DNA of 10,019 nucleotides. It comes from a virus. Its lineage: Duplodnaviria; Heunggongvirae; Uroviricota; Caudoviricetes. This document shows positions 1-10,019 of this stretch, piece by piece. A program made the translations under genes and the position numbers. The notes below the pieces were generated by a model. That model was given only the letters and a program-made list of their open reading frames with translations, was not told where the DNA came from and ran no database searches. The stretch lies in IMG/VR virus record IMGVR_UViG_2721755712_000002; one strand, given 5' to 3'. Within the stretch, counting starts at the first letter, position 1. Every line of letters begins with the position of its first letter.

Positions 1-110
1 CTAACCCATTGATTCTTTCGAAAACCTAAATTTGAGGAAGCCGGATAACACCATTTTTATAGCTCCGATCCCTTCAAAGTGAGGGGTAATTTGCCAAAAC
101 AGAGAGAGCA

Positions 111-434
111 TTACTGTCTCTGGCAATCTTTATCGCGATAACGCCTGAAGTACCCTCTCGCTTCCTCATCCATACCAAGAGCCGAATGAGTCCGCTTACC
201 AACATCCATCAATCCACTGAGAACGCCATACATAAAACGGTCGAAACCGTTAGCATTATTAACAACATTTTCCTGTCTGGAATTTTCCTCTGGTGAAACC
301 AAAGGTGATTGCTGCTGTTCTGGTTGGGCATCAAGCACAAAACCATCAGGAAGCTGTGAACTATCAGGAAACTGTGAGTTATCAGGTTGTTCATCGAGCA
401 CAAAACCTTCCGGTAAGATTACATTTGCTGCCAT
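111..434 (-). CDS. Hypothetical protein (107 aa) with an internal tandem peptide repeat
   Basis: ATG 434 with AGGAA upstream, overlapping the 3' end of the 447-aa gene by 16 nt. Repeat PEGFVLDEQPDNSQ / PDGFVLDAQPEQQQ, acidic and Gln-rich. Stop TAA at 111. Confidence 0.45.
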   Translation of the reverse strand: MAANVILPEGFVLDEQPDNSQFPDSSQLPDGFVLDAQPEQQQSPLVSPEENSRQENVVNNANGFDRFMYGVLSGLMDVGKRTHSALGMDEEARGYFRRYRDKDCQRQ

Positions 435-1766: not shown

Positions 1767-1940
1767 TTACCCACGTCCAGTTAAAGTGTAAGCCAGCGCC
1801 TTATCCATTAATCCCCGAGCAATTTCGTGGATCGTTGGCGCAACTCCTACCTCTGATTTTTTACGCTGCTCCTCCTGAATTTTCTTTATCGCTTCCATTT
1901 GCTTCTCACTTATCAATACTGGCTTTACTGAAATAGCCAT
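1767..1940 (-). CDS. Small protein (57 aa), possibly ribbon-helix-helix (CopG/Arc-like) DNA-binding
   Basis: ATG 1940 with AAGGGGGG Shine-Dalgarno 4 nt upstream. The 100-aa ORF-track version (to 2069) is an unsupported extension across the terminator hairpin. Predicted pattern of strand (ISVKPVLIS) then two helices; the fold is inferred only. Confidence 0.55.
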   Translation of the reverse strand: MAISVKPVLISEKQMEAIKKIQEEQRKKSEVGVAPTIHEIARGLMDKALAYTLTGRG

Positions 1941-1974
1941 AACGCCCCCCTTAGAACTGTATAAAACAACAGTC

Positions 1975-2003
1975 ATTATAGTTTCATAAAACGCAACATT
2001 CAT
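1975..2003 (-). promoter_or_regulatory. Candidate sigma70 promoter for the 57-aa/447-aa operon
   Basis: Perfect TATAAT on the minus strand (plus 1975..1980), about 35 nt upstream of ATG 1940. The -35 at 17-bp spacing (ATGAAT) is weak. Lies between the terminator and the gene start. Confidence 0.3.
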
Positions 2004-2041
2004 CATTGTGATTGCAAAATATGAAACAAATAGCACAAAAA

Positions 2042-2068
2042 AATGCCACCGTTCAGTAGCTGGTGGCA
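2042..2068 (-). terminator. Candidate rho-independent terminator for leftward (minus-strand) transcription
   Basis: On the minus strand: stem AUGCCACC / GGUGGCAU (plus 2042..2049 pairing with 2061..2068), 11-nt loop, then UUUUUU (plus A-run 2037..2042). The loop is longer than ideal. Confidence 0.45.
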
Positions 2069-2263
2069 TCGTTCTGTATGTCAGGTTTTGACAGTTTTTT
2101 TATGGACTCTAAAAACTATATTTATGGAGTCGCATTACTCTTCACGGCAGGCGCTTTCCAGTTCTGCCCTTGCTTCTGGCTCCATTGGTAATTTGATTCG
2201 CGATCAGCTATGCGGATGGTTTGCTGAACAGGCATAACAACATCTCAGAGGCTATTTTTTGAA

Positions 2264-2280
2264 CTACGAAAATTTCGTAG
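2264..2280. promoter_or_regulatory. 17-bp near-perfect palindrome CTACGAAAATTTCGTAG; candidate operator for a dimeric DNA-binding protein
   Basis: Read directly: 8-bp arms CTACGAAA / TTTCGTAG around a single central base. Located in the 600-bp non-coding region. No T-tract follows on either strand, so it is unlikely to be a terminator. Confidence 0.35.
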
Positions 2281-2435
2281 TGCTCACCTTCAAAAACGTC
2301 ACGCCCTTGTACACTGGATTTTACAAAAGTCTCGTAAAACTCTTTGCTGTTCTGGGCTATGTGCCAAACCGCAGCGAATACCTCCGTCTGCCAGATGAGC
2401 AAAACATACCTTATAAAGAAAATCGCTGTTTTTGC

Positions 2436-2539
2436 TGTACCACCTGTACCACCATGTCACAAACCCTTGTGTGGCGCGGCCTGCAGGTGGTACAGGTGGG
2501 TAAAAATGACCTCTCCCCACCTGTACAGACCTGTACCAT
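2436..2539. repeat. Iteron cluster 1: the same GGTGGTACAGGT core in both orientations, including tandem 9-mers (CTGTACCAC)x2
   Basis: Read directly: CTGTACCACCTGTACCACC at 2436..2454 (reverse orientation of the core), GGTGGTACAGGTGG at 2487..2500, CCACCTGTACAGACCTGTACCA at 2518..2539. Lies immediately downstream of the 245-aa gene stop (2544). Confidence 0.7.
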
Positions 2540-2543
2540 TTAT

Positions 2544-3281
2544 TTAATTTTTACCCATAGCAGCACATAATCCCTTTTTTGAAATATTGAAAAATGCGTT
2601 CATTCTTCCCGCTGGCTTAACCTTGTAGCCGCTTGCCACCATCGCCGCAATAAATGCTCCGTTGGGGATATAGTGCGGGTGATCACTGTGCTGGTGGTTT
2701 ATCTGGTTATATCGCTCCACTTCATGCTTCAACGTGTCAGATGTGGGGTTATCCTGCGGGAAGCTCTCAATCTGGGCATTACTCATCCCGTTGTCTCTGA
2801 TCCATCTCAGGCAGCTTTTCGCCGATACGATAAATGACGGGTTATCAAGCGGGTTTTCCCAGTCCGCATTCCGGTTGTGGAGCGCCAGTCCGTCAAGGTT
2901 AAATTGTGGGTATTCAGCGGTAATTACTGTCACTGCGTGGCGGATTTCAGTCTCGTCACAACATGGCTCATCTCCCACACCAGCAGGGTAATAATCTGAA
3001 CCACCGGGACTGATACAGCGTTTACCACTGAAAGGCCATTGCTTCGCCATTTCGGGTGTTGAGTGATTACCGTCGCTCCGTTCGCGCTGTGCCTCTGTCC
3101 ACTGGCTGGCATATTCAGTAAATGAAACTCTTTGCCCCTGGCGCATCCAGTGCGCAATCATAATTAAAGTGCGTTCCAGACTTTGGATGTCGCCAGCATT
3201 CCCGCACTGTGTAGCGAAACTTTTTAATTCTTCGCGCTCCGTTCTGGTCATTCCCTGCAGTATGCAATAGTTATTGTTCAT
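2544..3281 (-). CDS. Hypothetical protein (245 aa), Cys- and His-containing, no recognisable family
   Basis: ATG 3281 with GAGG upstream, coupled to the 76-aa gene. Segments RCISPGGSDYYPAGVGDEPCCDE and HQHSDHPH could be metal-binding. Followed directly by iteron cluster 1. Good codon usage and length. Confidence 0.7.
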   Translation of the reverse strand: MNNNYCILQGMTRTEREELKSFATQCGNAGDIQSLERTLIMIAHWMRQGQRVSFTEYASQWTEAQRERSDGNHSTPEMAKQWPFSGKRCISPGGSDYYPAGVGDEPCCDETEIRHAVTVITAEYPQFNLDGLALHNRNADWENPLDNPSFIVSAKSCLRWIRDNGMSNAQIESFPQDNPTSDTLKHEVERYNQINHQHSDHPHYIPNGAFIAAMVASGYKVKPAGRMNAFFNISKKGLCAAMGKN

Positions 3282-3501: not shown

Positions 3502-3545
3502 TGGTTGTTCCCTCTCAGCCAGCCAGAAGAAATGCGTTTGTTAAT

Positions 3546-3648
3546 GGTATAGGTGGTACAGGTCTGGTATAGGTAAGATATTGACCTGTACCACTATAAC
3601 GCATTGTTTTTAATGCTGAATTAGCAAAGTGGTATAGGTGGTACAGGT
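3546..3648. repeat. Iteron cluster 2: exact 19-bp direct repeat TGGTATAGGTGGTACAGGT twice (84 bp apart), a partial copy, and an inverted copy
   Basis: Read directly: 3546..3564 and 3630..3648 are identical; TGGTATAGGT at 3566..3575; GACCTGTACCACTATA at 3583..3598 is the inverted copy. Sits between the stop of the primase-like gene (3678) and the start of the 76-aa gene (3501). Confidence 0.7.
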
Positions 3649-3677
3649 AAAAACGATCTTCTTGTAAAAAGACTATA

Positions 3678-4457
3678 TTAAAAAACATCATAACCCCCCA
3701 TACCGATCAGACGGGCAAACGCAGCCTGTAGAACTCCGACCTCTGGTAGTTCGTAGAACACGCCATTCCCTCGGTCTGGTCTTCCATGCTTCACCAGCCC
3801 CATTTGTGCAAGTGATTTACCCAGTAGTGATCTGGCAGCTGGTTCTTTAAGCTTTTCCCCACGCTCAAGCGACCACGCTACAAATCGACTAACCATATCC
3901 TTTGCAAACAAACGGACTTCGCCATTAAACGGAGGTTCATTGATTAGCTCGCCATAAAGAAACAATTCAACGCCAGACAGCCCCAGCAAGATTTCTTCAC
4001 GTAAGGCATCGGTCTGTGGCGCTCGTTGAGGGTCAAAACCTGAGAGATCCACCCCTTTAAGATGCCAAAGCAACTTTGCGGCACCGCCATCATTAAGCCA
4101 ACTGTACAGCCGATCAAAATACTCCCGGCTCTGTGCTTTTTCAGGAGATGGCTCAAGCACGAGATAGCGGCGCTCTCTTATCCCTGCCTGTAATACCTGT
4201 GTGCTGTTACTGGCAAATATCAACCGGGCAAAATTCGGCATTGGTTCAGCATCAATTCCCTTGCGCTCAAGGTTAAACGTCGGTTCGCTAATAATCGCTT
4301 CCTGAATAGCTTCTGGTACGCCATTGAGCAGTGACATAACCGCGCCAATCATTAACTTGTCTCTGTTGCTTGGGCTGGCCCCTTCAAGCCAGAACCCTAA
4401 AACAGTCTGAACCTGTTCGATGCGACATTGCGCTTCAATGAGCTGGATGTTGGTCAT
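3678..4457 (-). CDS. Primase-helicase C-terminal-like protein (259 aa); helicase motif C and arginine-finger-like segment, no Walker A in this ORF
   Basis: GGAGAG Shine-Dalgarno 6 nt upstream of ATG 4457. Segment ARLIFASNSTQVLQAGIRERRYLVLEPS resembles the motif C (hhhhS/T-N) plus Arg-finger region of SF3/P4-family primase-helicases. No GxxxxGK(S/T) P-loop is present. Product assignment is from recalled motifs only. Confidence 0.65.
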   Translation of the reverse strand: MTNIQLIEAQCRIEQVQTVLGFWLEGASPSNRDKLMIGAVMSLLNGVPEAIQEAIISEPTFNLERKGIDAEPMPNFARLIFASNSTQVLQAGIRERRYLVLEPSPEKAQSREYFDRLYSWLNDGGAAKLLWHLKGVDLSGFDPQRAPQTDALREEILLGLSGVELFLYGELINEPPFNGEVRLFAKDMVSRFVAWSLERGEKLKEPAARSLLGKSLAQMGLVKHGRPDRGNGVFYELPEVGVLQAAFARLIGMGGYDVF

Positions 4458-4717: not shown

Positions 4718-4908
4718 TTTTCACCACCAAGAATTACCAGCTCTGCACGGGCATCGTTAACCAAAGATGAGCACGCTTTAATCGCATCCACGACATCAGC
4801 AGCGTCCATTTCTTCAGCCGAAAGACTGACAGCAACCAGGACAGCCGCTGCTTGCTCGATTAATTGAAGTGCGGACGTAAGGCGAGGGGTATTAATTGAG
4901 TTATTCAT
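4714..4908 (-). CDS. Small hypothetical protein (64 aa)
   Basis: ATG 4908 with ACGGGGG Shine-Dalgarno-like sequence upstream; 8-nt overlap with the upstream gene; stop TGA overlaps the next ATG (ATGA). Confidence 0.5.
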   Translation of the reverse strand: MNNSINTPRLTSALQLIEQAAAVLVAVSLSAEEMDAADVVDAIKACSSLVNDARAELVILGGEK

Positions 4909-5119
4909 TGGTTGCCCCCGTTTTTACTGGCATTTCGCCACCTTCCAGCAGGAAATGAACGTCACGAACGGCGAGATCCAATATCGCGAGTAACGCCTTC
5001 AGTCTTTCGTCTCGTGAGGGAGAGTTGCTCACCAGAATGTCGTTAATCACTTCTGTCAGTGTGATGATCTGGCTTGTGCGTTCGAGGGGATCCATATGCA
5101 CATCGTAGGTTTTAATCAT
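4901..5119 (-). CDS. Small hypothetical protein (72 aa)
   Basis: ATG 5119 preceded by GGAGGTGG; ATGATTAA overlap with the upstream gene's stop. Corresponds to the C-terminal 72 codons of the 355-codon ORF. Stop TAA overlaps the next ATG (ATGAATAA). Confidence 0.5.
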   Translation of the reverse strand: MIKTYDVHMDPLERTSQIITLTEVINDILVSNSPSRDERLKALLAILDLAVRDVHFLLEGGEMPVKTGATNE

Positions 5120-5306
5120 GTGCCACCTCCATGCGGATACGACCAGCAAAAAAGCAGACGTGATCGCGCACCAGAGAACGGCGAGCATCGCGTTCAGACT
5201 CGGCAGCAATATGATGAATTTTGGCGGTAATTGTCGGGCAATCGCGGCGAACTGCGGCGATAATCCAGATAAATTGCGTTTTTTGGGTAGGGGTAGTAGC
5301 CAGCAT
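5112..5306 (-). CDS. Small hypothetical protein (64 aa)
   Basis: AAGGAGG Shine-Dalgarno 7 nt upstream of ATG 5306. Codons are E. coli-like (CGC, CTG, GAT, GCC) in this frame, whereas the overlapping frame of the 355-codon ORF is rare-codon-rich here. Stop TAA forms an ATGATTAA overlap with the next gene. Confidence 0.5.
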   Translation of the reverse strand: MLATTPTQKTQFIWIIAAVRRDCPTITAKIHHIAAESERDARRSLVRDHVCFFAGRIRMEVAHD

Positions 5307-5968
5307 GTGGCAGCCTCCTTCAGATAGCAGGTTACGCTACCACCGGAAACGCCAATTTCGCTGGTGGTAGCCCAGACAGGGTTGGCGTAACCGGCTCTGA
5401 AGGATACCGGCGCTTCCGAAGAAGCCCCCGCCTGAGCCACCATTGATTGACAAAGGCGCTGGATTATACACCAACGCCCAAAAAATGGGTGAGTCAGACC
5501 TACGACATAAAAAAAGACGCTCGGCGCGTCATATGTCGCCTTCAGAATTTTTAGGACGCCAATCCCGGCACCCGTTTTATGAGGTGCCTTATAACCATAA
5601 ACCGTGTTGCCGCATAACGGCAAGCTCTTTTTTATGGACTCCGAAAACTCACTATTGGAAGAACCAGAAGCACAGTACATCGCGCTCATTTCGTTAACGT
5701 CACGCGCGTGGACGAAGGTTTTTGTGGAGTCACTACACGAGCAGAGAAAGCCATCTACGACCAGAAATTCTCTGGCATAGCCGCTGACCTTCTCAACGCT
5801 AACACCATCGACCGTAATTTCTGACATAGTTAAGGCATCCGCTCCTACCACCAGCAAATGATAAACTTTGCTTGTATCTGCTGTATTAATGTCTGACTTT
5901 GCTGTCATATTGCTGGATTTTGGCGACATACCAGCCAGTGAAAATATCTTCTTCTGGGCGGTTAGCAT
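5303..5968 (-). CDS. Hypothetical protein (about 221 codons) with no in-frame stop; the frame stays open to 4901, giving the 355-codon ORF in the track
   Basis: ATG 5968 has a GGAGG Shine-Dalgarno 7 nt upstream and overlaps the previous stop (ATGCTAA). Codon usage is good in this frame down to about 5306, then rare codons (CTA, TTA, CGA, ATA, AGG) appear while the -1 frame becomes well-coded. At the expected ATGA start/stop overlap the sequence is ATGC, so the 3' end given here is inferred. Confidence 0.55.
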
Positions 5969-6982: not shown

Positions 6983-7414
6983 TTAGGCGGCGTTAAACGC
7001 GTCCGGGTAGAGTTTCAGAATGTCGGCAATTTCCTGCTGAGAAAGTCCGTTGTGATCATTTATGTTCGCAAGATGGTTAACATGAGTGATCACTTTCAGA
7101 ACATCACCACGGCAGGAGAAACGGTAGCGAAGGTGTGTTCCGATACCATCAGGATTCTTTTCGTCGATACGCTCCAGAGTGATTCCAAGCTGGCGTTCTA
7201 ACTCTGTTGCATAGTTACGACCAGAAGACAGACGGCAGTAGCGAAGAATGTCATTTTCTGTCCATCCCTCTATACCAGTACGCAGCATATAGACTCGGGC
7301 ACGATGCTTTTTCGGTGTGCGCTTTGGTGCTTGAAGGGATTTTGTAAGGGGCGTAATATCAGATACGCGAATATCTGAATTAGCCGCCTGTAATGGGCGG
7401 TTTTTCTTTTCCAT
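6983..7414 (-). CDS. Hypothetical protein (143 aa), possibly DNA-binding; basic N-terminus
   Basis: ATG 7414..7412 overlaps the alpA stop. Lys/Arg-rich N-terminal segment (APKRTPKKHRAR), then a region that could be a winged helix. Codon usage consistent with neighbours. No family recognised. Confidence 0.65.
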   Translation of the reverse strand: MEKKNRPLQAANSDIRVSDITPLTKSLQAPKRTPKKHRARVYMLRTGIEGWTENDILRYCRLSSGRNYATELERQLGITLERIDEKNPDGIGTHLRYRFSCRGDVLKVITHVNHLANINDHNGLSQQEIADILKLYPDAFNAA

Positions 7415-7632
7415 CAGGCCACCTTCCCGCGGCGTTCTGCCAGCCAGTTATTAATTTCCACCGCATCAAACGCAGTCACGTTATCTGTTAGCTTCACTGG
7501 GCGTGGAAGAGTGCCATTTTTAACCCATCTATCAATAGTAGGCAGTGAAACACCTAGCAATTCCGGCATGCGAAAGCGACGGATGTATCCAGTTGTTGGG
7601 ATAGCTGATGATGCTGGCTTGTGTACTGTCAT
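7414..7632 (-). CDS. alpA: AlpA-family transcriptional regulator / excisionase-like DNA-binding protein (72 aa)
   Basis: Motif RMPELLGVSLPTIDRWVKNGTLPRPVKL matches the AlpA/Xis-type helix-turn-helix signature (TI-x-RW-x-K-x-G-x-P-x-P-x-KL). First gene after the AT-rich control region. Stop TGA overlaps the next ATG (TGATG). Confidence 0.8.
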   Translation of the reverse strand: MTVHKPASSAIPTTGYIRRFRMPELLGVSLPTIDRWVKNGTLPRPVKLTDNVTAFDAVEINNWLAERRGKVA

Positions 7633-8103: not shown

Positions 8104-8754
8104 TTAGTCGAGATCGTGGACAGCTAATAAAGCCCGTGAGATTTTTTCTAGGAATGTGGCTTTTGCTATTCCTTTATGGGATATCCCTTCATCCTTGATT
8201 AAGGTTTCTATGTCACGGTATATAGCTGTGCGATTAGGTTTCCCATTTTGGATGTAGGAAGATGAGCCTGATTTTTTTATCAGCAGATGTACTATCAACC
8301 CCATCATTTTCATTGTCCCGTTTTCCTCATCCTGCTTTCTATGCTGCCCACGTCCGCTGCGGTTGGTTTCTTTGATGTAGTTTACTAACTGGAGTCCTCC
8401 AAGGTTTCGGGCTTTTTCTTCCCAGCCCTTGGTGCCACGCAAATCATCAATCGCTTCTGATATTTTCTGAACAATTATTTCTGGTGTATTTGTGTCAATA
8501 AATGGGTAAGAAGCTAAGAAAATATCAAGGGCATGGCAAGGCTCATCTTTACTAGTTTTTTCACCTCTGTACACCTTGATAGCTCTGGCAAGATGAGTTC
8601 TGACAAAATCGACATATTCGAAATTTTCCTCAGGCACATCGCTAATGCGCATAGATGGGTTTAGGCCAGCCAAGGCCACAGCCATTTCATGAGGGGTAAT
8701 CGATACAGATGAACAAAGCCGTTCGATTGGCGATTTTCTCAAGATGTTGTTCAC
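8104..8754 (-). CDS. Hypothetical protein (216 aa), AT-rich cargo gene translationally coupled to the integrase; function unknown
   Basis: ORF starts at GTG 8754..8752, overlapping the integrase stop TGA (ATGTGA); alternative in-frame ATG at 8685. About 40% GC in the counted segments against about 50% for the integrase. Stop TAA at 8104. No motif I can recognise. Confidence 0.6.
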   Translation of the reverse strand: MNNILRKSPIERLCSSVSITPHEMAVALAGLNPSMRISDVPEENFEYVDFVRTHLARAIKVYRGEKTSKDEPCHALDIFLASYPFIDTNTPEIIVQKISEAIDDLRGTKGWEEKARNLGGLQLVNYIKETNRSGRGQHRKQDEENGTMKMMGLIVHLLIKKSGSSSYIQNGKPNRTAIYRDIETLIKDEGISHKGIAKATFLEKISRALLAVHDLD

Positions 8755-10019
8755 ATTTGCCTCCGGGCTTTATCGAATGGCGTTACGTTGTAGTCTTTCC
8801 CGCTTTCCAGTGCCACCAGCAGATCTGCCCACTGTGCCAGTGCTGCTTTACGCTCATCAAAATACTGATGACGGTTATAAATCCCCTCTACGCCCTTAAT
8901 GCGATGATTGAGGCATCGTTCCGCCACGACAGGATCAACACCCAATGCTGCTAAATGAGTACGTGCGGTGCGTCGGAAGTCGTGAATCGTGAAATTAGGC
9001 ACATCCGGCATTTCGGCGCGAACCTTAGCCAGTGCTACGGGTAAAGTGCTTTCCTGAATATGTGGGATCATTCTGTTTTGCATCTTCCTGGCCGGAAGCA
9101 CCCATGCGCTATTACATGAAAAGGTGTGTAGCTCTCTCAACCATTCAACGGCTGGGGAAGGTAGAGGTATATCAATAGGGTCTCCGTTTTTGCTGCGTTC
9201 TTCCGGCAAATGCCATACCGCACCATCTAAATCAAACTCTTCCCATCGTGCGGCGCATAACTCCATCTTACGAACGCATAGTGCCAGCAATAGCTTAAAT
9301 GTCAGTTCGTTCTGGCGGCTGAATCCTTTTGCGGTGCGCATAGCCTCGAATAGCCTGATAAGCTCATCGCGAGTTAGCCAACGGTCGCGGGAAACCTCTT
9401 TACCACCAGCATCAGATACTTCAAACGCTGAACAAGGGTTTATCTCCAGAGCGTGGCGTTTTATCCCATAGTCAAAGATACGGCGTGTCCAGCGTAATAC
9501 ATCTGTTGCTATCGTTGGTGCTCCTCGGTCAACGATACCTTTTAACATGTCGTCAATGTGACGTGGCTTAACGTCCTCTACCTTCATATGCCCAATGCAG
9601 GGGTTAATATCCTTATCAATTCTCCGGCGAAGGATATCGGGATGTTTCCATCTCGGAAGTATCTGTCGCTCGAAGTATTCGGCGGCCAGATCTGAAACGC
9701 GCATGGCGTTTTTCTCAGCCTCCATTTTTGCCAGTGCTTCAGCTTTTCGTTCCTGTTTTTCTGCTGCTACGTCATAGCCAAGAGCAACTCTGGCTGACAG
9801 CTCTTTTGCTGTTTCTCTGGCTTTTGATAGTGACAGTTCGGAGTAAGAGCCGATAACCATAGCCCGCTGTTTTCCTGCGAGCTTATATCGGAATCGCCAG
9901 AACGGGACTGTGTAGTTTTTGGGGTAGCAAATATAAAGGCCGTTGCCGTCTGCCTTGCCATCAAATCTGTCTCCCGCCTTTATCCATGCGCGGATCTGCA
10001 TATCTGTGAGTTTTGGCAT
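8751..10019 (-). CDS. int: Tyrosine recombinase / site-specific integrase, P4 family (422 aa)
   Basis: The ATG is the last three bases of the window. N-terminus MPKLTDMQIRAWIKAG...GNGLYICY...WRFRYKLAGKQ is typical of the P4-integrase arm-binding region. C-terminal catalytic region contains HDFRRT (His-x-x-Arg), LNH and GIYNRHQY (candidate tyrosine nucleophile). Family assignment is from recalled motifs, not a search. Confidence 0.9.
   Translation of the reverse strand: MPKLTDMQIRAWIKAGDRFDGKADGNGLYICYPKNYTVPFWRFRYKLAGKQRAMVIGSYSELSLSKARETAKELSARVALGYDVAAEKQERKAEALAKMEAEKNAMRVSDLAAEYFERQILPRWKHPDILRRRIDKDINPCIGHMKVEDVKPRHIDDMLKGIVDRGAPTIATDVLRWTRRIFDYGIKRHALEINPCSAFEVSDAGGKEVSRDRWLTRDELIRLFEAMRTAKGFSRQNELTFKLLLALCVRKMELCAARWEEFDLDGAVWHLPEERSKNGDPIDIPLPSPAVEWLRELHTFSCNSAWVLPARKMQNRMIPHIQESTLPVALAKVRAEMPDVPNFTIHDFRRTARTHLAALGVDPVVAERCLNHRIKGVEGIYNRHQYFDERKAALAQWADLLVALESGKDYNVTPFDKARRQM

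What the first reader, a model, noticed from the sequence alone, without database searches (positions are those of the whole stretch)
1941..2543. 600-bp non-coding region with a terminator, a perfect -35 hexamer, a 17-bp palindrome and a possible 37-codon ORF
Between the 245-aa gene and the 57-aa gene there is no ORF of 60 codons or more. The region holds a minus-strand terminator hairpin (2042..2068), a perfect TTGACA on the plus strand (2087..2092) with a weak TAAAAA -10 at 17 bp, an imperfect direct repeat ATGGACTC-N-ATGGAGTC (about 2102..2130), a 17-bp palindrome (2264..2280), and a 37-codon minus-strand ORF (2122..2235, MPVQQTIRIADRESNYQW...) with acceptable codon usage. This density of signals suggests a regulatory hub, perhaps an sRNA or antisense RNA and an operator for the adjacent small DNA-binding protein.
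Basis: seen in the sequence. Interest (0 to 1): 0.5.

Follow-up and report, generated by a model that had tools for sequence, protein, structure and literature searches.

The report
Satellite island junction with borrowed packaging sites
The "non-coding hub" is the junction between the replication genes and the DNA-injection genes of a known kind of phage-parasitic island, and its small direct repeat is a copy of the stretch of a helper phage's small-terminase gene where the DNA-packaging signal is expected, which could explain how such islands get packaged.

Summary
The window is an EcCIMP1-type phage-inducible chromosomal island (PICI), a degraded copy between dinD and yicC.

Read on the gene (minus) strand, 2543..1941 holds:
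- a second cluster of replication iterons (CCTGTACC);
- a frameshifted anti-repressor pseudogene that contains the palindrome;
- a chimeric 37-codon ORF that carries a stop codon in relatives;
- a strong intrinsic terminator;
- a conserved promoter with a LexA-type box (1957..1972) for the 57-aa gene and ejection-protein operon.

The units are copied from the small-terminase gene (terS) of CUS-3-type P22-like phages. In a TerS alignment they fall within a codon of the mapped P22 pac site. A second TerS type (Kapi1, the proven helper of EcCIMP1) and an allelic variant each have matching copies in related islands.

I propose the units are packaging signals for helper terminase, at about 0.55 confidence for that function. 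The sRNA, the TTGACA promoter, the palindrome as operator and the small protein are not supported.

The parts
2435..2538 (.). Iteron cluster with core CCTGTAC/GTACAGG. Copies: CTGTACCAC x2 at 2435..2452, inverted GGTGGTACAGGTGG at 2486..2499, CCCACCTGTAC at 2516..2526, ACCTGTACCA at 2529..2538. This is the second (P4 crr-like) cluster of the primase-helicase replicon.
   Evidence: There are four exact 7-mer cores in 114 nt against 0.015 expected. The same architecture is kept downstream of the 245-aa homologue in Raoultella L162. The iteron type changes together with the replication module: islands with the TOPRIM-DUF927 primase carry GTTGGTTCA.
2396..2434 (.). A+T-rich stretch next to the iterons (minus strand: caaaaacagcgattttctttataaggtatgtttt).
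   Evidence: Seen directly in the sequence. It is conserved in Raoultella L162. A related 'ttttataagga' core lies between the GTTGGTTCA iterons of L003 and L005.
3555..3650 (.). First iteron cluster, with the same CCTGTACC(ACC) repeats, right after the primase-helicase stop codon. It lies outside the finding and is the likelier origin proper.
   Evidence: It is conserved in Raoultella L162 and Xenorhabdus L163.
2194..2343 (-). Decayed anti-repressor gene (phrog_1726 type). Homology runs over 2194..2303 in two reading frames, and a 10-nt deletion causes the frameshift. 2343/2344 is a recombination breakpoint between island variants.
   Evidence: tblastn, DNA alignment with Klebsiella phage phiKp_30 gp080, family assignment, breakpoints at query positions 251 and 403.
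2263..2281 (.). 19-bp palindrome ACTACGAAA-A-TTTCGTAGT. It corresponds to codons H-Y-E-I-F-V-V of the pseudogene.
   Evidence: The element also recurs at the DNA level in non-coding spots of other P22-like phages.
2122..2235 (-). 37-codon ORF, not a gene. The N-terminal half is the anti-repressor remnant. The C-terminal half is the tail of a 152-aa gene that is present in L004.
   Evidence: A nonsense codon (TGG->TGA at codon 26) is present in L134, L138-L141 and EcCIMP1. No family match.
2116..2140 (-). terS-derived unit A, degenerate: GAGTAATGCGACTCCATAAATATAG.
   Evidence: It is conserved as GCGACACCATAAAGG in Leclercia-type islands L006 and L144.
2094..2118 (-). terS-derived unit B: TAGTTTTTAGAGTCCATAAAAAAAC. 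This is the candidate pac-like site for CUS-3-type small terminase.
   Evidence: The exact 14-mer GAGTCCATAAAAAA occurs at 2096..2109. The unit matches CUS-3 terS. It sits 150-210 nt upstream of the 57-aa start in E. coli, Leclercia-type and L142 islands. Among all CUS-3 genome 12-mers, only those from this site occur at least twice in the window.
5626..5650 (-). Third, best-preserved unit, GAGTTTTCGGAGTCCATAAAAAAGA, identical to CUS-3 terS over 24 of 24 nt. It lies just upstream of the isrK promoter. A degenerate copy lies at 5718..5731.
   Evidence: The unit is absent upstream of isrK in phages SfV and JL22.
2088..2093 (+). It is probably fortuitous.
   Evidence: Not part of any scan hit. 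Not conserved outside the E. coli group.
2037..2070 (-). Intrinsic terminator that ends the upstream (replication) transcription unit.
   Evidence: A terminator with a different stem sequence sits at the same place in L006, L007, L008 and L142-L145.
1993..2015 (.). Inverted repeat GCAAT-N13-(A/G)TTGC over the -35 region. It is a candidate operator whose binding protein is unknown.
   Evidence: The arms are conserved while the spacer varies across 21 loci.
1975..1980 (-). -10 hexamer TATAAT of the promoter for the 57-aa gene and ejection-protein operon.
   Evidence: Nearly invariant in the promoter alignment. The -35 is weak, which is why the consensus scan misses the promoter.
1957..1972 (.). 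LexA-type SOS box CTGT-N8-ACAG, starting 2 nt downstream of the -10.
   Evidence: It is the only match in the window, against 0.11 expected. It is at the same position in L005, L006, L132-L145 and EcCIMP1. The same pattern also hits upstream of dinD in L001; I take that to be the known dinD SOS box, from my own knowledge, and use it as a rough control.
1767..1940 (-). 57-aa gene with SD AAGGGGGG at 1945..1952. It is the first gene of the operon that continues into the gp20-like ejection protein.
   Evidence: The start codon and protein are conserved across genera. The AlphaFold model shows an extended N-terminus plus two helices. The RefSeq 100-aa version would run through the promoter and the terminator.

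Best explanation
The 600 bp is the junction between two modules of an EcCIMP1-type PICI, a phage satellite of P22-like phages. It is a patchwork of functional sites and gene debris, not one regulatory unit.

Reading with the genes (descending coordinates):
1. A second cluster of iterons for the island's P4-alpha-like primase-helicase replicon, with an A+T-rich stretch (inferred function).
2. A dead anti-repressor gene, which accounts for the palindrome and for half of the 37-codon ORF (shown).
3. Two tandem 22-bp units copied from the part of a CUS-3-type helper phage's small-terminase gene that corresponds to the P22 pac site. The derivation from terS is shown. The function is inferred: the helper's small terminase recognises these units on replicated island DNA and starts headful packaging there, in the direction of the island's genes. 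The island carries further copies, and related islands carry equivalent copies for Sf6/Kapi1-type terminase, so one island could be packaged by several helper types.
4. An intrinsic terminator that closes the replication operon (strongly supported).
5. A sigma-70 promoter with a LexA box over its start site, which drives the 57-aa gene and the ejection-protein genes. DNA damage, which also induces helper prophages, would therefore switch this operon on (inferred from sequence and conservation).
For: Identity of the island:
- The gene order is int, HTH, AntA/B, DUF4222, Ash, primase, gap, small gene, gp20/gp16. This is the same as in E. coli MP1 EcCIMP1.
- EcCIMP1 is experimentally induced and transduced by the P22-like phage Kapi1. 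Its packaging mechanism is stated to be unknown (PMC11773190).

Origin of the units in terS:
- About half of 120 exact IMG/VR hits to the 15-mer lie in one gene. That gene is terS of CUS-3, phiv205-1, N7 and phiKp_30.
- Window 5627..5650 is 24/24 identical to CUS-3 terS.
- Of all 12-mers in the 40-kb CUS-3 genome, only those at the terS site occur at least twice in the window.

Second terminase type:
- Of all 12-mers in the Kapi1 genome, only GACAAGTACGCG occurs at least twice in EcCIMP1. It occurs three times, all on the gene strand, and it maps to Kapi1 terS.

Position in terS:
- The P22 pac is annotated in gene 3 at codons 90-97. It is described as a 22-bp asymmetric site inside terS (PMC9611059; PMC10996546).
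- In a TerS alignment it falls within one codon of both the CUS-3 and the Kapi1 segments.

Covariation:
- Island L142 carries GAGTTTTGCGAGTCCATAAAAA.
- TerS 'EFCESIKK' alleles carry exactly that DNA, 22/22, including the CG->GC change.

Conserved placement:
- The unit sits 150-210 nt upstream of the small gene in three diverged island lineages, while the flanks differ.

Helper availability:
- CUS-3-type terS is full length in 395 of 5426 complete E. coli genomes.

Other parts:
- Iterons.
- Pseudogene.
- Terminator.
- Promoter and LexA box.
Against: Against the packaging reading:
- No experiment shows that the CUS-3 or Sf6/Kapi1 segment is a pac site. The equivalence with P22 pac rests on a weak alignment: BLASTP finds no significant P22-CUS-3 similarity, and the Pfam GP3_package match has E = 0.09.
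- Unit B in the window is only 18/22 to the CUS-3 22-mer (20/25 to the full unit), and unit A is more degenerate. EcCIMP1's own copy at this position has a T->A change in the core.
- Islands L007, L008 and L146-L152 show no such unit in the stretch examined.
- The variant units of L143 and L145 found no terS match by exact search.
- The best copy abuts the isrK promoter, so a transcriptional role there is possible.
- The Sf6-type copies carry an extra palindrome, TACGCGCGCGTA, that is not in terS.

Against function in this particular copy:
- This island looks defective. The primase-helicase is cut to 259 aa (755 aa in L162/L163), gp16 is cut to 107 aa, and gp14/gp7 are missing. The sites here may be relics.

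Untested:
- LexA binding and iteron function.
Confidence: 0.6

Rival explanations
1. One reading: a regulatory hub. A plus-strand promoter (TTGACA/TAAAAA) makes an sRNA or antisense RNA, the palindrome is the operator of the adjacent 57-aa DNA-binding protein, and a 37-aa peptide may be encoded.
For: - The listed sequence features exist.
- The 57-aa protein is predicted as an extended segment plus two helices, which is compatible with a ribbon-helix-helix fold.
- The palindromic element recurs in intergenic places of other P22-like phages, so it may bind something.
Against: - No Rfam match in the region and no promoter-scan hit.
- TTGACA and the palindrome are absent from Leclercia-type and other relatives that keep the 57-aa gene.
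- The palindrome lies in a frameshifted pseudogene and is inherited from an intact phage gene.
- The ORF carries a stop codon in six relatives.
- The 57-aa protein has no Pfam, PHROG, PDB-sequence or Foldseek support as a DNA binder.
Confidence: 0.08
2. The terS-like units are neutral debris left by past recombination between the island and P22-like phages, with no present function.
For: - The same gap clearly holds other debris: the anti-repressor remnant and the chimeric ORF.
- Unit A and the 5718..5731 copy are degenerate.
- EcCIMP1's copy at this position has a core substitution.
Against: - Debris should be single-copy with arbitrary ends. Here two to four copies per island share the same roughly 22-25-nt boundaries. 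All lie on the gene strand, at two or three separate places.
- The core is kept in three diverged lineages whose flanks are unalignable.
- Two unrelated TerS types both contribute the same codon segment.
- An allelic change in terS is mirrored in an island.
Confidence: 0.15
3. The units do bind a helper protein but serve another purpose. They could be decoys that titrate small terminase and so interfere with helper packaging. Or they could be binding sites or UP-like elements that couple island promoters, such as the isrK promoter, to a helper-encoded factor.
For: - The best copy ends 3 nt before the -35 of the isrK promoter and is A-rich, like an UP element.
Against: - isrK promoters in SfV and P1-like phage JL22 lack the unit.
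- In the finding's region the units are followed by a terminator, not a promoter.
- A decoy role and a packaging role share the same first step, TerS binding, so this is more a variant than a true rival.
Confidence: 0.15

Closest known systems
EcCIMP1, the PICI of E. coli MP1 mobilised by the P22-like phage Kapi1 (Pick et al., ISME J 2025, PMC11773190)
   Same: The gene order and many identical or near-identical proteins are shared: Ash, AntA/B, DUF4222, the small gene, and gp20-like. The same roughly 590-bp gap follows the replication genes, with the same pseudogene, units, terminator and promoter.
   Different: The window copy sits at dinD/yicC rather than tRNA-Thr/proA. It has a different replication module (Zn-ribbon/Toprim_3/DUF5906-type helicase fragment plus 76-aa and 245-aa genes and CCTGTACC iterons) instead of TOPRIM-DUF927 with GTTGGTTCA iterons. 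It lacks gp14 and gp7, has a truncated gp16 and has no accessory region. The paper does not describe pac-like sites, iterons or a LexA box; it calls the packaging mechanism unknown.
Helper packaging signals carried by satellites: the two cos sites of EcCICFT073 (PMC6739421); also P4 cos and SaPIbov5 cos, from my own knowledge
   Same: A satellite without its own terminase carries a copy of the helper's packaging signal and depends on the helper's small terminase.
   Different: Here the helper is a headful (pac) packager. The copied piece is about 22 bp taken from inside the terS coding sequence. It is present in several copies and for at least two terminase specificities. No Rpp-like redirecting protein was found.
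P22 pac site (22-bp asymmetric site in gene 3; BK000583 feature 4..25)
   Same: Similar length, asymmetric, inside terS. It is within one codon of the same alignment position in the N-terminal domain.
   Different: The sequence differs: GAAGATTTATCTGAAGTCGTTA against GAGTTTTCGGAGTCCATAAAAAAGG. No P22-type pac was found in any island locus at up to 5 mismatches. Function is shown for P22 only.
Phage P4 ori/crr iterons bound by the C-terminal domain of the alpha primase-helicase (my own knowledge)
   Different: The iteron sequence and spacing differ. Which protein binds is unknown. The primase-helicase is truncated in this copy.
LexA control of SaPI operon I, the packaging module (Ubeda et al. 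2007; title seen in the reference list of PMC6739421)
   Same: The operon downstream of the replication module in a PICI carries an SOS box at its promoter.
   Different: This is a Gram-negative island. The operon encodes ejection proteins rather than terS and capsid-size genes. LexA binding has not been tested.

Membership tests
PICI (phage-inducible chromosomal island), EcCIMP1 type | Integrase at one end, followed by AlpA/HTH regulator genes in the same direction | tested here: met
   Integrase at 8751..10019(-) and HTH regulator at 7414..7632(-) in the RefSeq annotation of the identical locus. The order is the same as in EcCIMP1.
PICI (phage-inducible chromosomal island), EcCIMP1 type | Own replication module (primase/helicase) with an adjacent origin | tested here: inconclusive
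   Only a 259-aa helicase-type fragment remains, matching DUF5906 and phrog_1156, against 755 aa in relatives. Iteron clusters are present.
PICI (phage-inducible chromosomal island), EcCIMP1 type | No capsid, terminase or lysis genes; size about 10-20 kb | tested here: met
   The only virion-related genes are gp20-like and a gp16 fragment.
PICI (phage-inducible chromosomal island), EcCIMP1 type | Induction, excision and transfer depend on a helper phage | not testable with these tools
   Shown for EcCIMP1 with Kapi1 (PMC11773190), not for this copy.
Phage pac site (headful packaging signal) | The sequence occurs in the helper genome at the place where its terminase starts packaging, typically within or near terS | tested here: inconclusive
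   The units match terS of CUS-3-type and Kapi1 phages. They align within one codon of the P22 pac. The pac sites of CUS-3 and Kapi1 have not been mapped, and the P22 alignment is weak.
Phage pac site (headful packaging signal) | Short asymmetric site of about 20 bp, with its orientation defining the packaging direction | tested here: met
   The units are 22-25 bp, non-palindromic, and every copy is on the gene strand.
Phage pac site (headful packaging signal) | Required in cis for packaging and recognised by the small terminase | not testable with these tools
   Needs transduction assays or mapping of DNA ends in virions.
Iteron-type replication origin (P4 ori/crr-like) | Several copies of one short repeat in direct and inverted orientation, next to an A+T-rich stretch | tested here: met
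   Four core 7-mers in 114 nt against 0.015 expected.
Iteron-type replication origin (P4 ori/crr-like) | The repeat type changes together with the replication protein | tested here: met
   CCTGTACC goes with the Zn-ribbon/Toprim_3/DUF5906 module in E. coli, Raoultella and Xenorhabdus. GTTGGTTCA goes with TOPRIM-DUF927 in E. coli and Leclercia. AAAAGTGGGGA goes with an AAA_25 helicase.
Iteron-type replication origin (P4 ori/crr-like) | Supports replication when the initiator is supplied | not testable with these tools
   Not tested.
LexA (SOS) box | CTGT-N8-ACAG with an A/T-rich centre, overlapping a promoter | tested here: met
   At 1957..1972, starting 2 nt after TATAAT. It is the only match in the window and matches 14 of 20 positions of TACTGTATATATATACAGTA by eye.
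LexA (SOS) box | Conserved in relatives at the same position | tested here: met
   Present in L005, L006, L132-L145 and EcCIMP1. Degenerate in L007, L008 and L146-L152.
LexA (SOS) box | Bound by LexA, and de-repressed by DNA damage | not testable with these tools
   Not tested.
Ribbon-helix-helix regulators (Arc/Mnt/CopG), for the 57-aa protein | Sequence or profile match to a known RHH family | tested here: not met
   No Pfam hit at E <= 1, no PHROG, no meaningful PDB sequence hit and no Foldseek hit.
Ribbon-helix-helix regulators (Arc/Mnt/CopG), for the 57-aa protein | Strand-helix-helix topology | tested here: inconclusive
   The AlphaFold monomer has an extended stretch at 1-11 and helices at 12-28 and 37-53, mean pLDDT 75. 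The strand would form only in a dimer.
Known sRNA / antisense RNA families (Rfam) | Covariance-model match within 1941..2543 | tested here: not met
   The only real hits are C4 (5360..5447) and isrK (5510..5587), elsewhere in the window.

The most novel reading that the evidence does not exclude
EcCIMP1-type islands get themselves packaged by carrying short (about 22 bp) multi-copy mimics of the pac segment that lies inside their helpers' small-terminase genes. They collect mimics for several terminase specificities (CUS-3 type, its Cys allele, Sf6/Kapi1 type), so one island can ride different P22-like helpers. As a by-product, the island copies pinpoint the still unmapped pac sites of CUS-3-type and Sf6-type terminases.
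Probability: 0.5. Interest if true: 0.72.

Novelty: new variant of a known kind. Interest (0 to 1): 0.6.

Why it matters
The paper that described EcCIMP1 could not say how the island is packaged and found only very low transfer by Kapi1 (PMC11773190). The units give a concrete, testable answer. They also predict that CUS-3-type phages, present in about 7% of complete E. coli genomes, are better helpers.

If the idea holds, three things follow:
- It would be an example of a satellite copying a pac signal from inside a helper gene, and of one island holding signals for several helper types.
- It would help locate pac sites in P22-like phages other than P22.
- The LexA box would tie expression of the island's ejection-protein operon to the same DNA-damage signal that induces helper prophages.

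For genome annotation, the analysis shows that the palindrome and the small ORF are pseudogene debris. It also shows that the RefSeq 100-aa call over this region is probably an over-extension of a 57-aa gene.

Tried and rejected
- Rfam scan of the whole window at E <= 1: nothing in 1941..2543.
- Sigma-70 consensus scan: no site on either strand. The real promoter has a weak -35 and was found only by conservation.
- Pfam and PHROG scans of every mechanical ORF in the gap and of the 37-aa and 57-aa products: no hits.
- 57-aa protein: profile search of PDB sequences and Foldseek on the model gave only noise.
- I first thought the 245-aa protein was the iteron binder. That idea weakened when a homologue turned up beside a different origin type (L160) and when the same iterons were found right after the primase-helicase gene.
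- I considered a Q-antiterminated PR'-like late promoter upstream of the terminator, and C4 or IsrK base-pairing with the units. No supporting sequence was seen by eye, and both ideas were dropped.
- Exact search for the L143/L145 unit variants in viral contigs found only the islands themselves and chance hits.
- P22-type pac at up to 5 mismatches: absent from all island loci.
- BLASTP of P22 gp3 against CUS-3 TerS: not significant. Only the multiple alignment places the sites together.
- The shared 12-mer ATGGCAATCATC (terL) in L003 was judged to be chance.
- The paper on Sf6 small terminase (PMC3643300) is not held, so I could not check whether pac mapping exists for Sf6 or CUS-3.
- One literature search was wasted on the word 'Ash'.
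Full report
WHAT THE WINDOW IS

The window is 100% identical to a roughly 10.5-kb island in many E. coli genomes. It lies between dinD and yicC, and all its genes are on the minus strand. The gene order is:
- integrase;
- a 216-aa gene;
- an HTH regulator;
- an AntA/B anti-repressor;
- DUF4222;
- an 'Ash family' gene;
- small genes;
- a 259-aa 'primase-helicase family' protein;
- a 76-aa and a 245-aa gene;
- the gap in question;
- a small gene;
- a P22 gp20-like ejection protein (Pfam Inj_translocase, E = 2.5e-73);
- a 107-aa fragment that matches only the N-terminus of a roughly 700-aa PHROG family (phrog_6704), in the position of the gp16-like gene in relatives.

Fuller relatives have a 918-aa TOPRIM-DUF927 primase, the same gap, the same small gene, then gp14-like, gp7-like, gp20-like and gp16-like genes, and accessory genes such as PerC.

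This family has been described. EcCIMP1 of E. coli MP1 is a PICI that is excised and transduced only with the P22-like helper phage Kapi1. The authors state that its packaging mechanism is unknown, that transfer is very inefficient, and that only 2 of 21 carrier strains have a Kapi1-like prophage (PMC11773190).

The window copy is degraded in three ways:
- the primase-helicase is reduced to its C-terminal 259 aa, against 755 aa in Raoultella and Xenorhabdus relatives;
- gp16 is cut short;
- gp14 and gp7 are absent.

CHECK OF THE OBSERVATION

The following features are present:
- the terminator;
- the direct repeat (family D8);
- the palindrome, which is really 19 bp at 2263..2281 (pair I24);
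- the 37-codon ORF;
- TTGACA, at 2088..2093.

'No ORF of 60 codons or more' is not literally true. None of those ORFs matches a family. One of them, 1767..2069, which RefSeq annotates as 100 aa, is the 57-aa gene read back through its own promoter and the terminator.

The region is conserved in pieces. Window 1941..2343 is 94-98% identical in hundreds of E. coli genomes, with breakpoints at 2191 and 2343. Window 2344..2543 travels only with the 245-aa gene, in 127 genomes.

ANATOMY, READ WITH THE GENES (DESCENDING COORDINATES)

(a) 2543..2396: iterons

Directly after the 245-aa stop codon come copies of CCTGTACC/GGTACAGG in both orientations, then an A+T-rich stretch. Four exact 7-mer cores fall in 114 nt, against 0.015 expected.

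The same repeats form another cluster at 3555..3650, right after the primase-helicase stop codon. That cluster is conserved in Raoultella and in Xenorhabdus. The cluster in the finding's region is conserved in Raoultella.

Islands with the TOPRIM-DUF927 primase have, at the equivalent spot, GTTGGTTCA x3-4, an A+T-rich core, then TGAACCAAC x3. This also holds in Leclercia, where the flanks have diverged. A third module, with an AAA_25 helicase, has AAAAGTGGGGA repeats.

(b) 2343..2194: a dead gene

tblastn with a 242-aa protein of the P22-like Klebsiella phage phiKp_30 (phrog_1726, anti-repressor) matches the window in two frames. One frame gives RDVFEGEHYEIFVVQK. After a shift, the other gives MPVQQTIRIADRES.

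The DNA alignment shows a 10-nt deletion in the island just after the palindrome. The palindrome is the codons H-Y-E-I-F-V-V, and the identical 36 nt are in the intact phage gene.

The 37-codon ORF starts in the second frame of this remnant. It ends in the C-terminal tail of a different gene, which is intact (152 aa) in island L004. Six relatives, including EcCIMP1, carry TGG->TGA at its codon 26. It is not a gene.

On the gene strand this is two adjacent 22-nt units: GAGTAATGCGACTCCATAAATATAG and TAGTTTTTAGAGTCCATAAAAAAAC.

The 14-mer GAGTCCATAAAAAA occurs again at 5628..5641, just upstream of the isrK promoter, with a degenerate copy at 5718..5731.

A scan of viral contigs with the 15-mer showed that about half of 120 hits lie in one coding context...[19 protein letters not shown].... 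This is the small terminase of CUS-3, phiv205-1, N7, phiKp_30 and others: phrog_309, next to a large-terminase gene closely similar (99% over the overlap) to that of CUS-3. Window 5627..5650 is 24/24 identical to CUS-3 terS.

An unbiased check gave the same answer. Of all 12-mers in the CUS-3 genome, the only ones present at least twice in the window come from this terS site.

The unit lies 150-210 nt upstream of the small gene, on the gene strand, just before the terminator, in three lineages whose flanks cannot be aligned:
- E. coli islands;
- Leclercia-type islands (1 of 25 mismatches; L006 has an extra copy whose similarity to terS extends to ATCCTGAATTTCTTGAG...);
- L142.

isrK in phages SfV and JL22 has no such unit, so the unit is not a part of isrK promoters in general.

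WHY I READ THE UNITS AS PACKAGING SIGNALS

1. In P22 the pac site is a 22-bp asymmetric sequence inside gene 3 (terS). It is annotated at BK000583 4..25, which is codons 90-97, E-D-L-S-E-V-V-T (PMC9611059; PMC10996546).

2. In a multiple alignment of P22, Kapi1, CUS-3 and 27 other TerS sequences, those codons fall within one codon of CUS-3 Y-P-E-F-S-E-S-I. The P22 part of that alignment is weak, because BLASTP sees nothing significant.

3. Kapi1, the proven helper, has an Sf6-type TerS without the CUS-3 motif. Yet of all 12-mers in the Kapi1 genome, exactly one occurs at least twice in EcCIMP1. It is GACAAGTACGCG, with three copies, all on the gene strand. It maps to Kapi1 terS codons R-D-K-Y-A, the same alignment position. 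L003 and L004 carry these copies too.

4. A prediction held. Island L142 has GAGTTTTGCGAGTCCATAAAAA, and TerS alleles with Cys at that position (EFCESIKK; Citrobacter/Hafnia and Raoultella prophages) have exactly that DNA, 22/22, including the CG->GC change.

5. All copies of both types point the same way.

6. CUS-3-type terS is common in E. coli, full length in 395 of 5426 genomes. This fits the authors' suspicion that helpers other than Kapi1 exist.

Satellites that carry a helper's packaging signal are known. EcCICFT073 has two cos sites and needs the phage TerS (PMC6739421).

What is shown is the origin of the units in terS, together with their conservation. What is inferred is that terminase uses them.

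Caveats:
- the pac sites of CUS-3 and Sf6-type phages are not mapped in anything I could read;
- unit B here is only 18/22 to the CUS-3 22-mer (20/25 to the full unit);
- EcCIMP1's copy at this position has a core change;
- several distant islands show no unit;
- the L143/L145 variants found no terS partner.

(d) 2070..2037: terminator

The hairpin plus seven T residues folds at -19.9 kcal/mol, z = -5.1. Relatives have a terminator at the same place with different stem sequences. It ends the replication-module transcript.

(e) 2036..1941: promoter of the small gene and ejection-protein operon

An alignment of 21 loci from several genera shows a conserved block: TTTCAT, TGCAAT, ATGA, ATTGC, TG.AA.TATAAT, then CTGT-N8-ACAG, a Shine-Dalgarno sequence, and ATG.
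- The -10 is a perfect TATAAT (1975..1980). The -35 is poor, which is why the consensus scan is silent.
- CTGT-N8-ACAG at 1957..1972 is the only such site in the window, against 0.11 expected. It sits at the same position in E. coli, Leclercia-type and L142-L145 islands and in EcCIMP1, with variable inner bases.
- The same pattern also picks a site upstream of dinD in the flanking chromosome. I take this to be the known dinD SOS box, from my own knowledge, and treat it as a rough positive control.

A LexA box over the transcription start suggests SOS control. That would echo LexA control of SaPI operon I (Ubeda et al. 2007; title seen).

The inverted repeat GCAAT-N13-ATTGC over the -35 region is a further candidate operator. 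If the 57-aa protein is a DNA binder, this is a better candidate site than the palindrome.

The 57-aa protein is conserved across Escherichia, Serratia, Klebsiella, Raoultella and Erwinia. It is modelled as an extended segment plus two helices. It has no match to any known DNA-binding family, so 'small DNA-binding protein' remains a guess.

The region is signal-dense and partly regulatory, but not in the way proposed:
- there is no evidence for an sRNA;
- the TTGACA and the palindrome are not conserved with the small gene;
- the ORF is debris.

The one listed feature that turns out to matter is the direct repeat.

NOVELTY AND SCORE

The island family, the terminator, the promoter and the iterons are ordinary members of known kinds. 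The terS-derived multi-copy, multi-specificity units are, as far as the searchable literature shows, undescribed. They bear directly on an open question stated in the EcCIMP1 paper.

I rate the finding as a new variant of a known kind, with interest 0.6. Confidence is about 0.85 in the anatomy and about 0.55 in the packaging function.

Noticed in passing
window 5360..5447 (-) and 5510..5587 (-): Strong Rfam matches to C4 antisense RNA (79.9 bits) and isrK (59.9 bits) lie inside the ORF that RefSeq calls a 355-aa 'ash family protein' (4901..5968). The Ash domain covers only residues 124-232. The true start may be the ATG after C4, near 5305, preceded by AGGAGG. This would give the island a P1 immI-like module of sRNA plus anti-repressor.
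   Followed up: partly
window 2255..2290; L172, L173, L178, L183, L203, L205, L208, L213, L215, L219; L176, L181: The 20-mer CACTACGAAATTTTCGTAGT, extended by TCAAAAA in most copies, has 58 exact hits in viral contigs. Most lie in anti-repressor genes. At least ten lie in a non-coding insertion of about 75 nt between ant and the tailspike gene of P22-like phages, inside the 'bsq1 boundary sequence'. Phages epsilon34, Emek, Kapi1, CUS-3 and HK620 have the flanks but lack the insertion. This DNA-level element of unknown function could be a protein site, a recombination boundary or a homing target.
   Followed up: partly
L165 (EcCIMP1) 2358, 4112, 4400 (-); L003 2153, 4300; L004 4392, 4678: Repeats tATTTTGCGACAAGTACGCGCGCGtag lie in the accessory region of full-length islands. 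They share 12-19 nt with Kapi1 (Sf6-type) terS and also carry a palindrome, TACGCGCGCGTA, that is not in terS. More degenerate copies (GACCAGTACGCG) lie nearby in L003.
   Followed up: partly
window 3555..3650: A first cluster of the same CCTGTACC(ACC) iterons follows the primase-helicase stop codon, around an A+T-rich core. It overlaps the mechanical 58-aa ORF 3515..3691, which is therefore probably not a gene.
   Followed up: partly
window 3678..4457 (-), 111..434 (-): The primase-helicase is only the C-terminal 259 aa of a 755-aa protein (Zn_Ribbon_Prim/Toprim_3/DUF5906 in L162 and L163). The gp16-like gene is only a 107-aa N-terminal piece. gp14- and gp7-like genes are missing. This widespread island variant (127 genomes) is probably not autonomous.
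   Followed up: partly
window 1767..2069 (-): RefSeq annotates a 100-aa protein (WP_014639841.1) here. Other genomes annotate a 53-57-aa version (WP_001018522.1 in L003/L004, identical to the window's 57-aa product; WP_001018524.1 in EcCIMP1). The longer ORF runs through the LexA box, the -10 and the terminator, and is not conserved in other genera.
   Followed up: yes
L003 9440..9560, L004, L005 4440..4560, L006 2190..2300, L165: A textbook origin follows the TOPRIM-DUF927 primase gene of EcCIMP1-type islands: GTTGGTTCA x3-4, about 45 nt of A+T-rich sequence, then TGAACCAAC x3. The iterons are conserved in Leclercia although the flanks are not.
   Followed up: partly
window 2497..2507 / 2547..2557: A perfect 11-nt inverted repeat, TGGGTAAAAAT / ATTTTTACCCA, brackets the stop codon of the 245-aa gene (pair I11). 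Its meaning is unknown.
   Followed up: no
L001 9761..9776: The CTGT-N8-ACAG pattern also hits about 46 nt upstream of the chromosomal dinD gene beside the island. This is presumably the known dinD SOS box (my own knowledge), and I used it as a rough positive control for the pattern.
   Followed up: no
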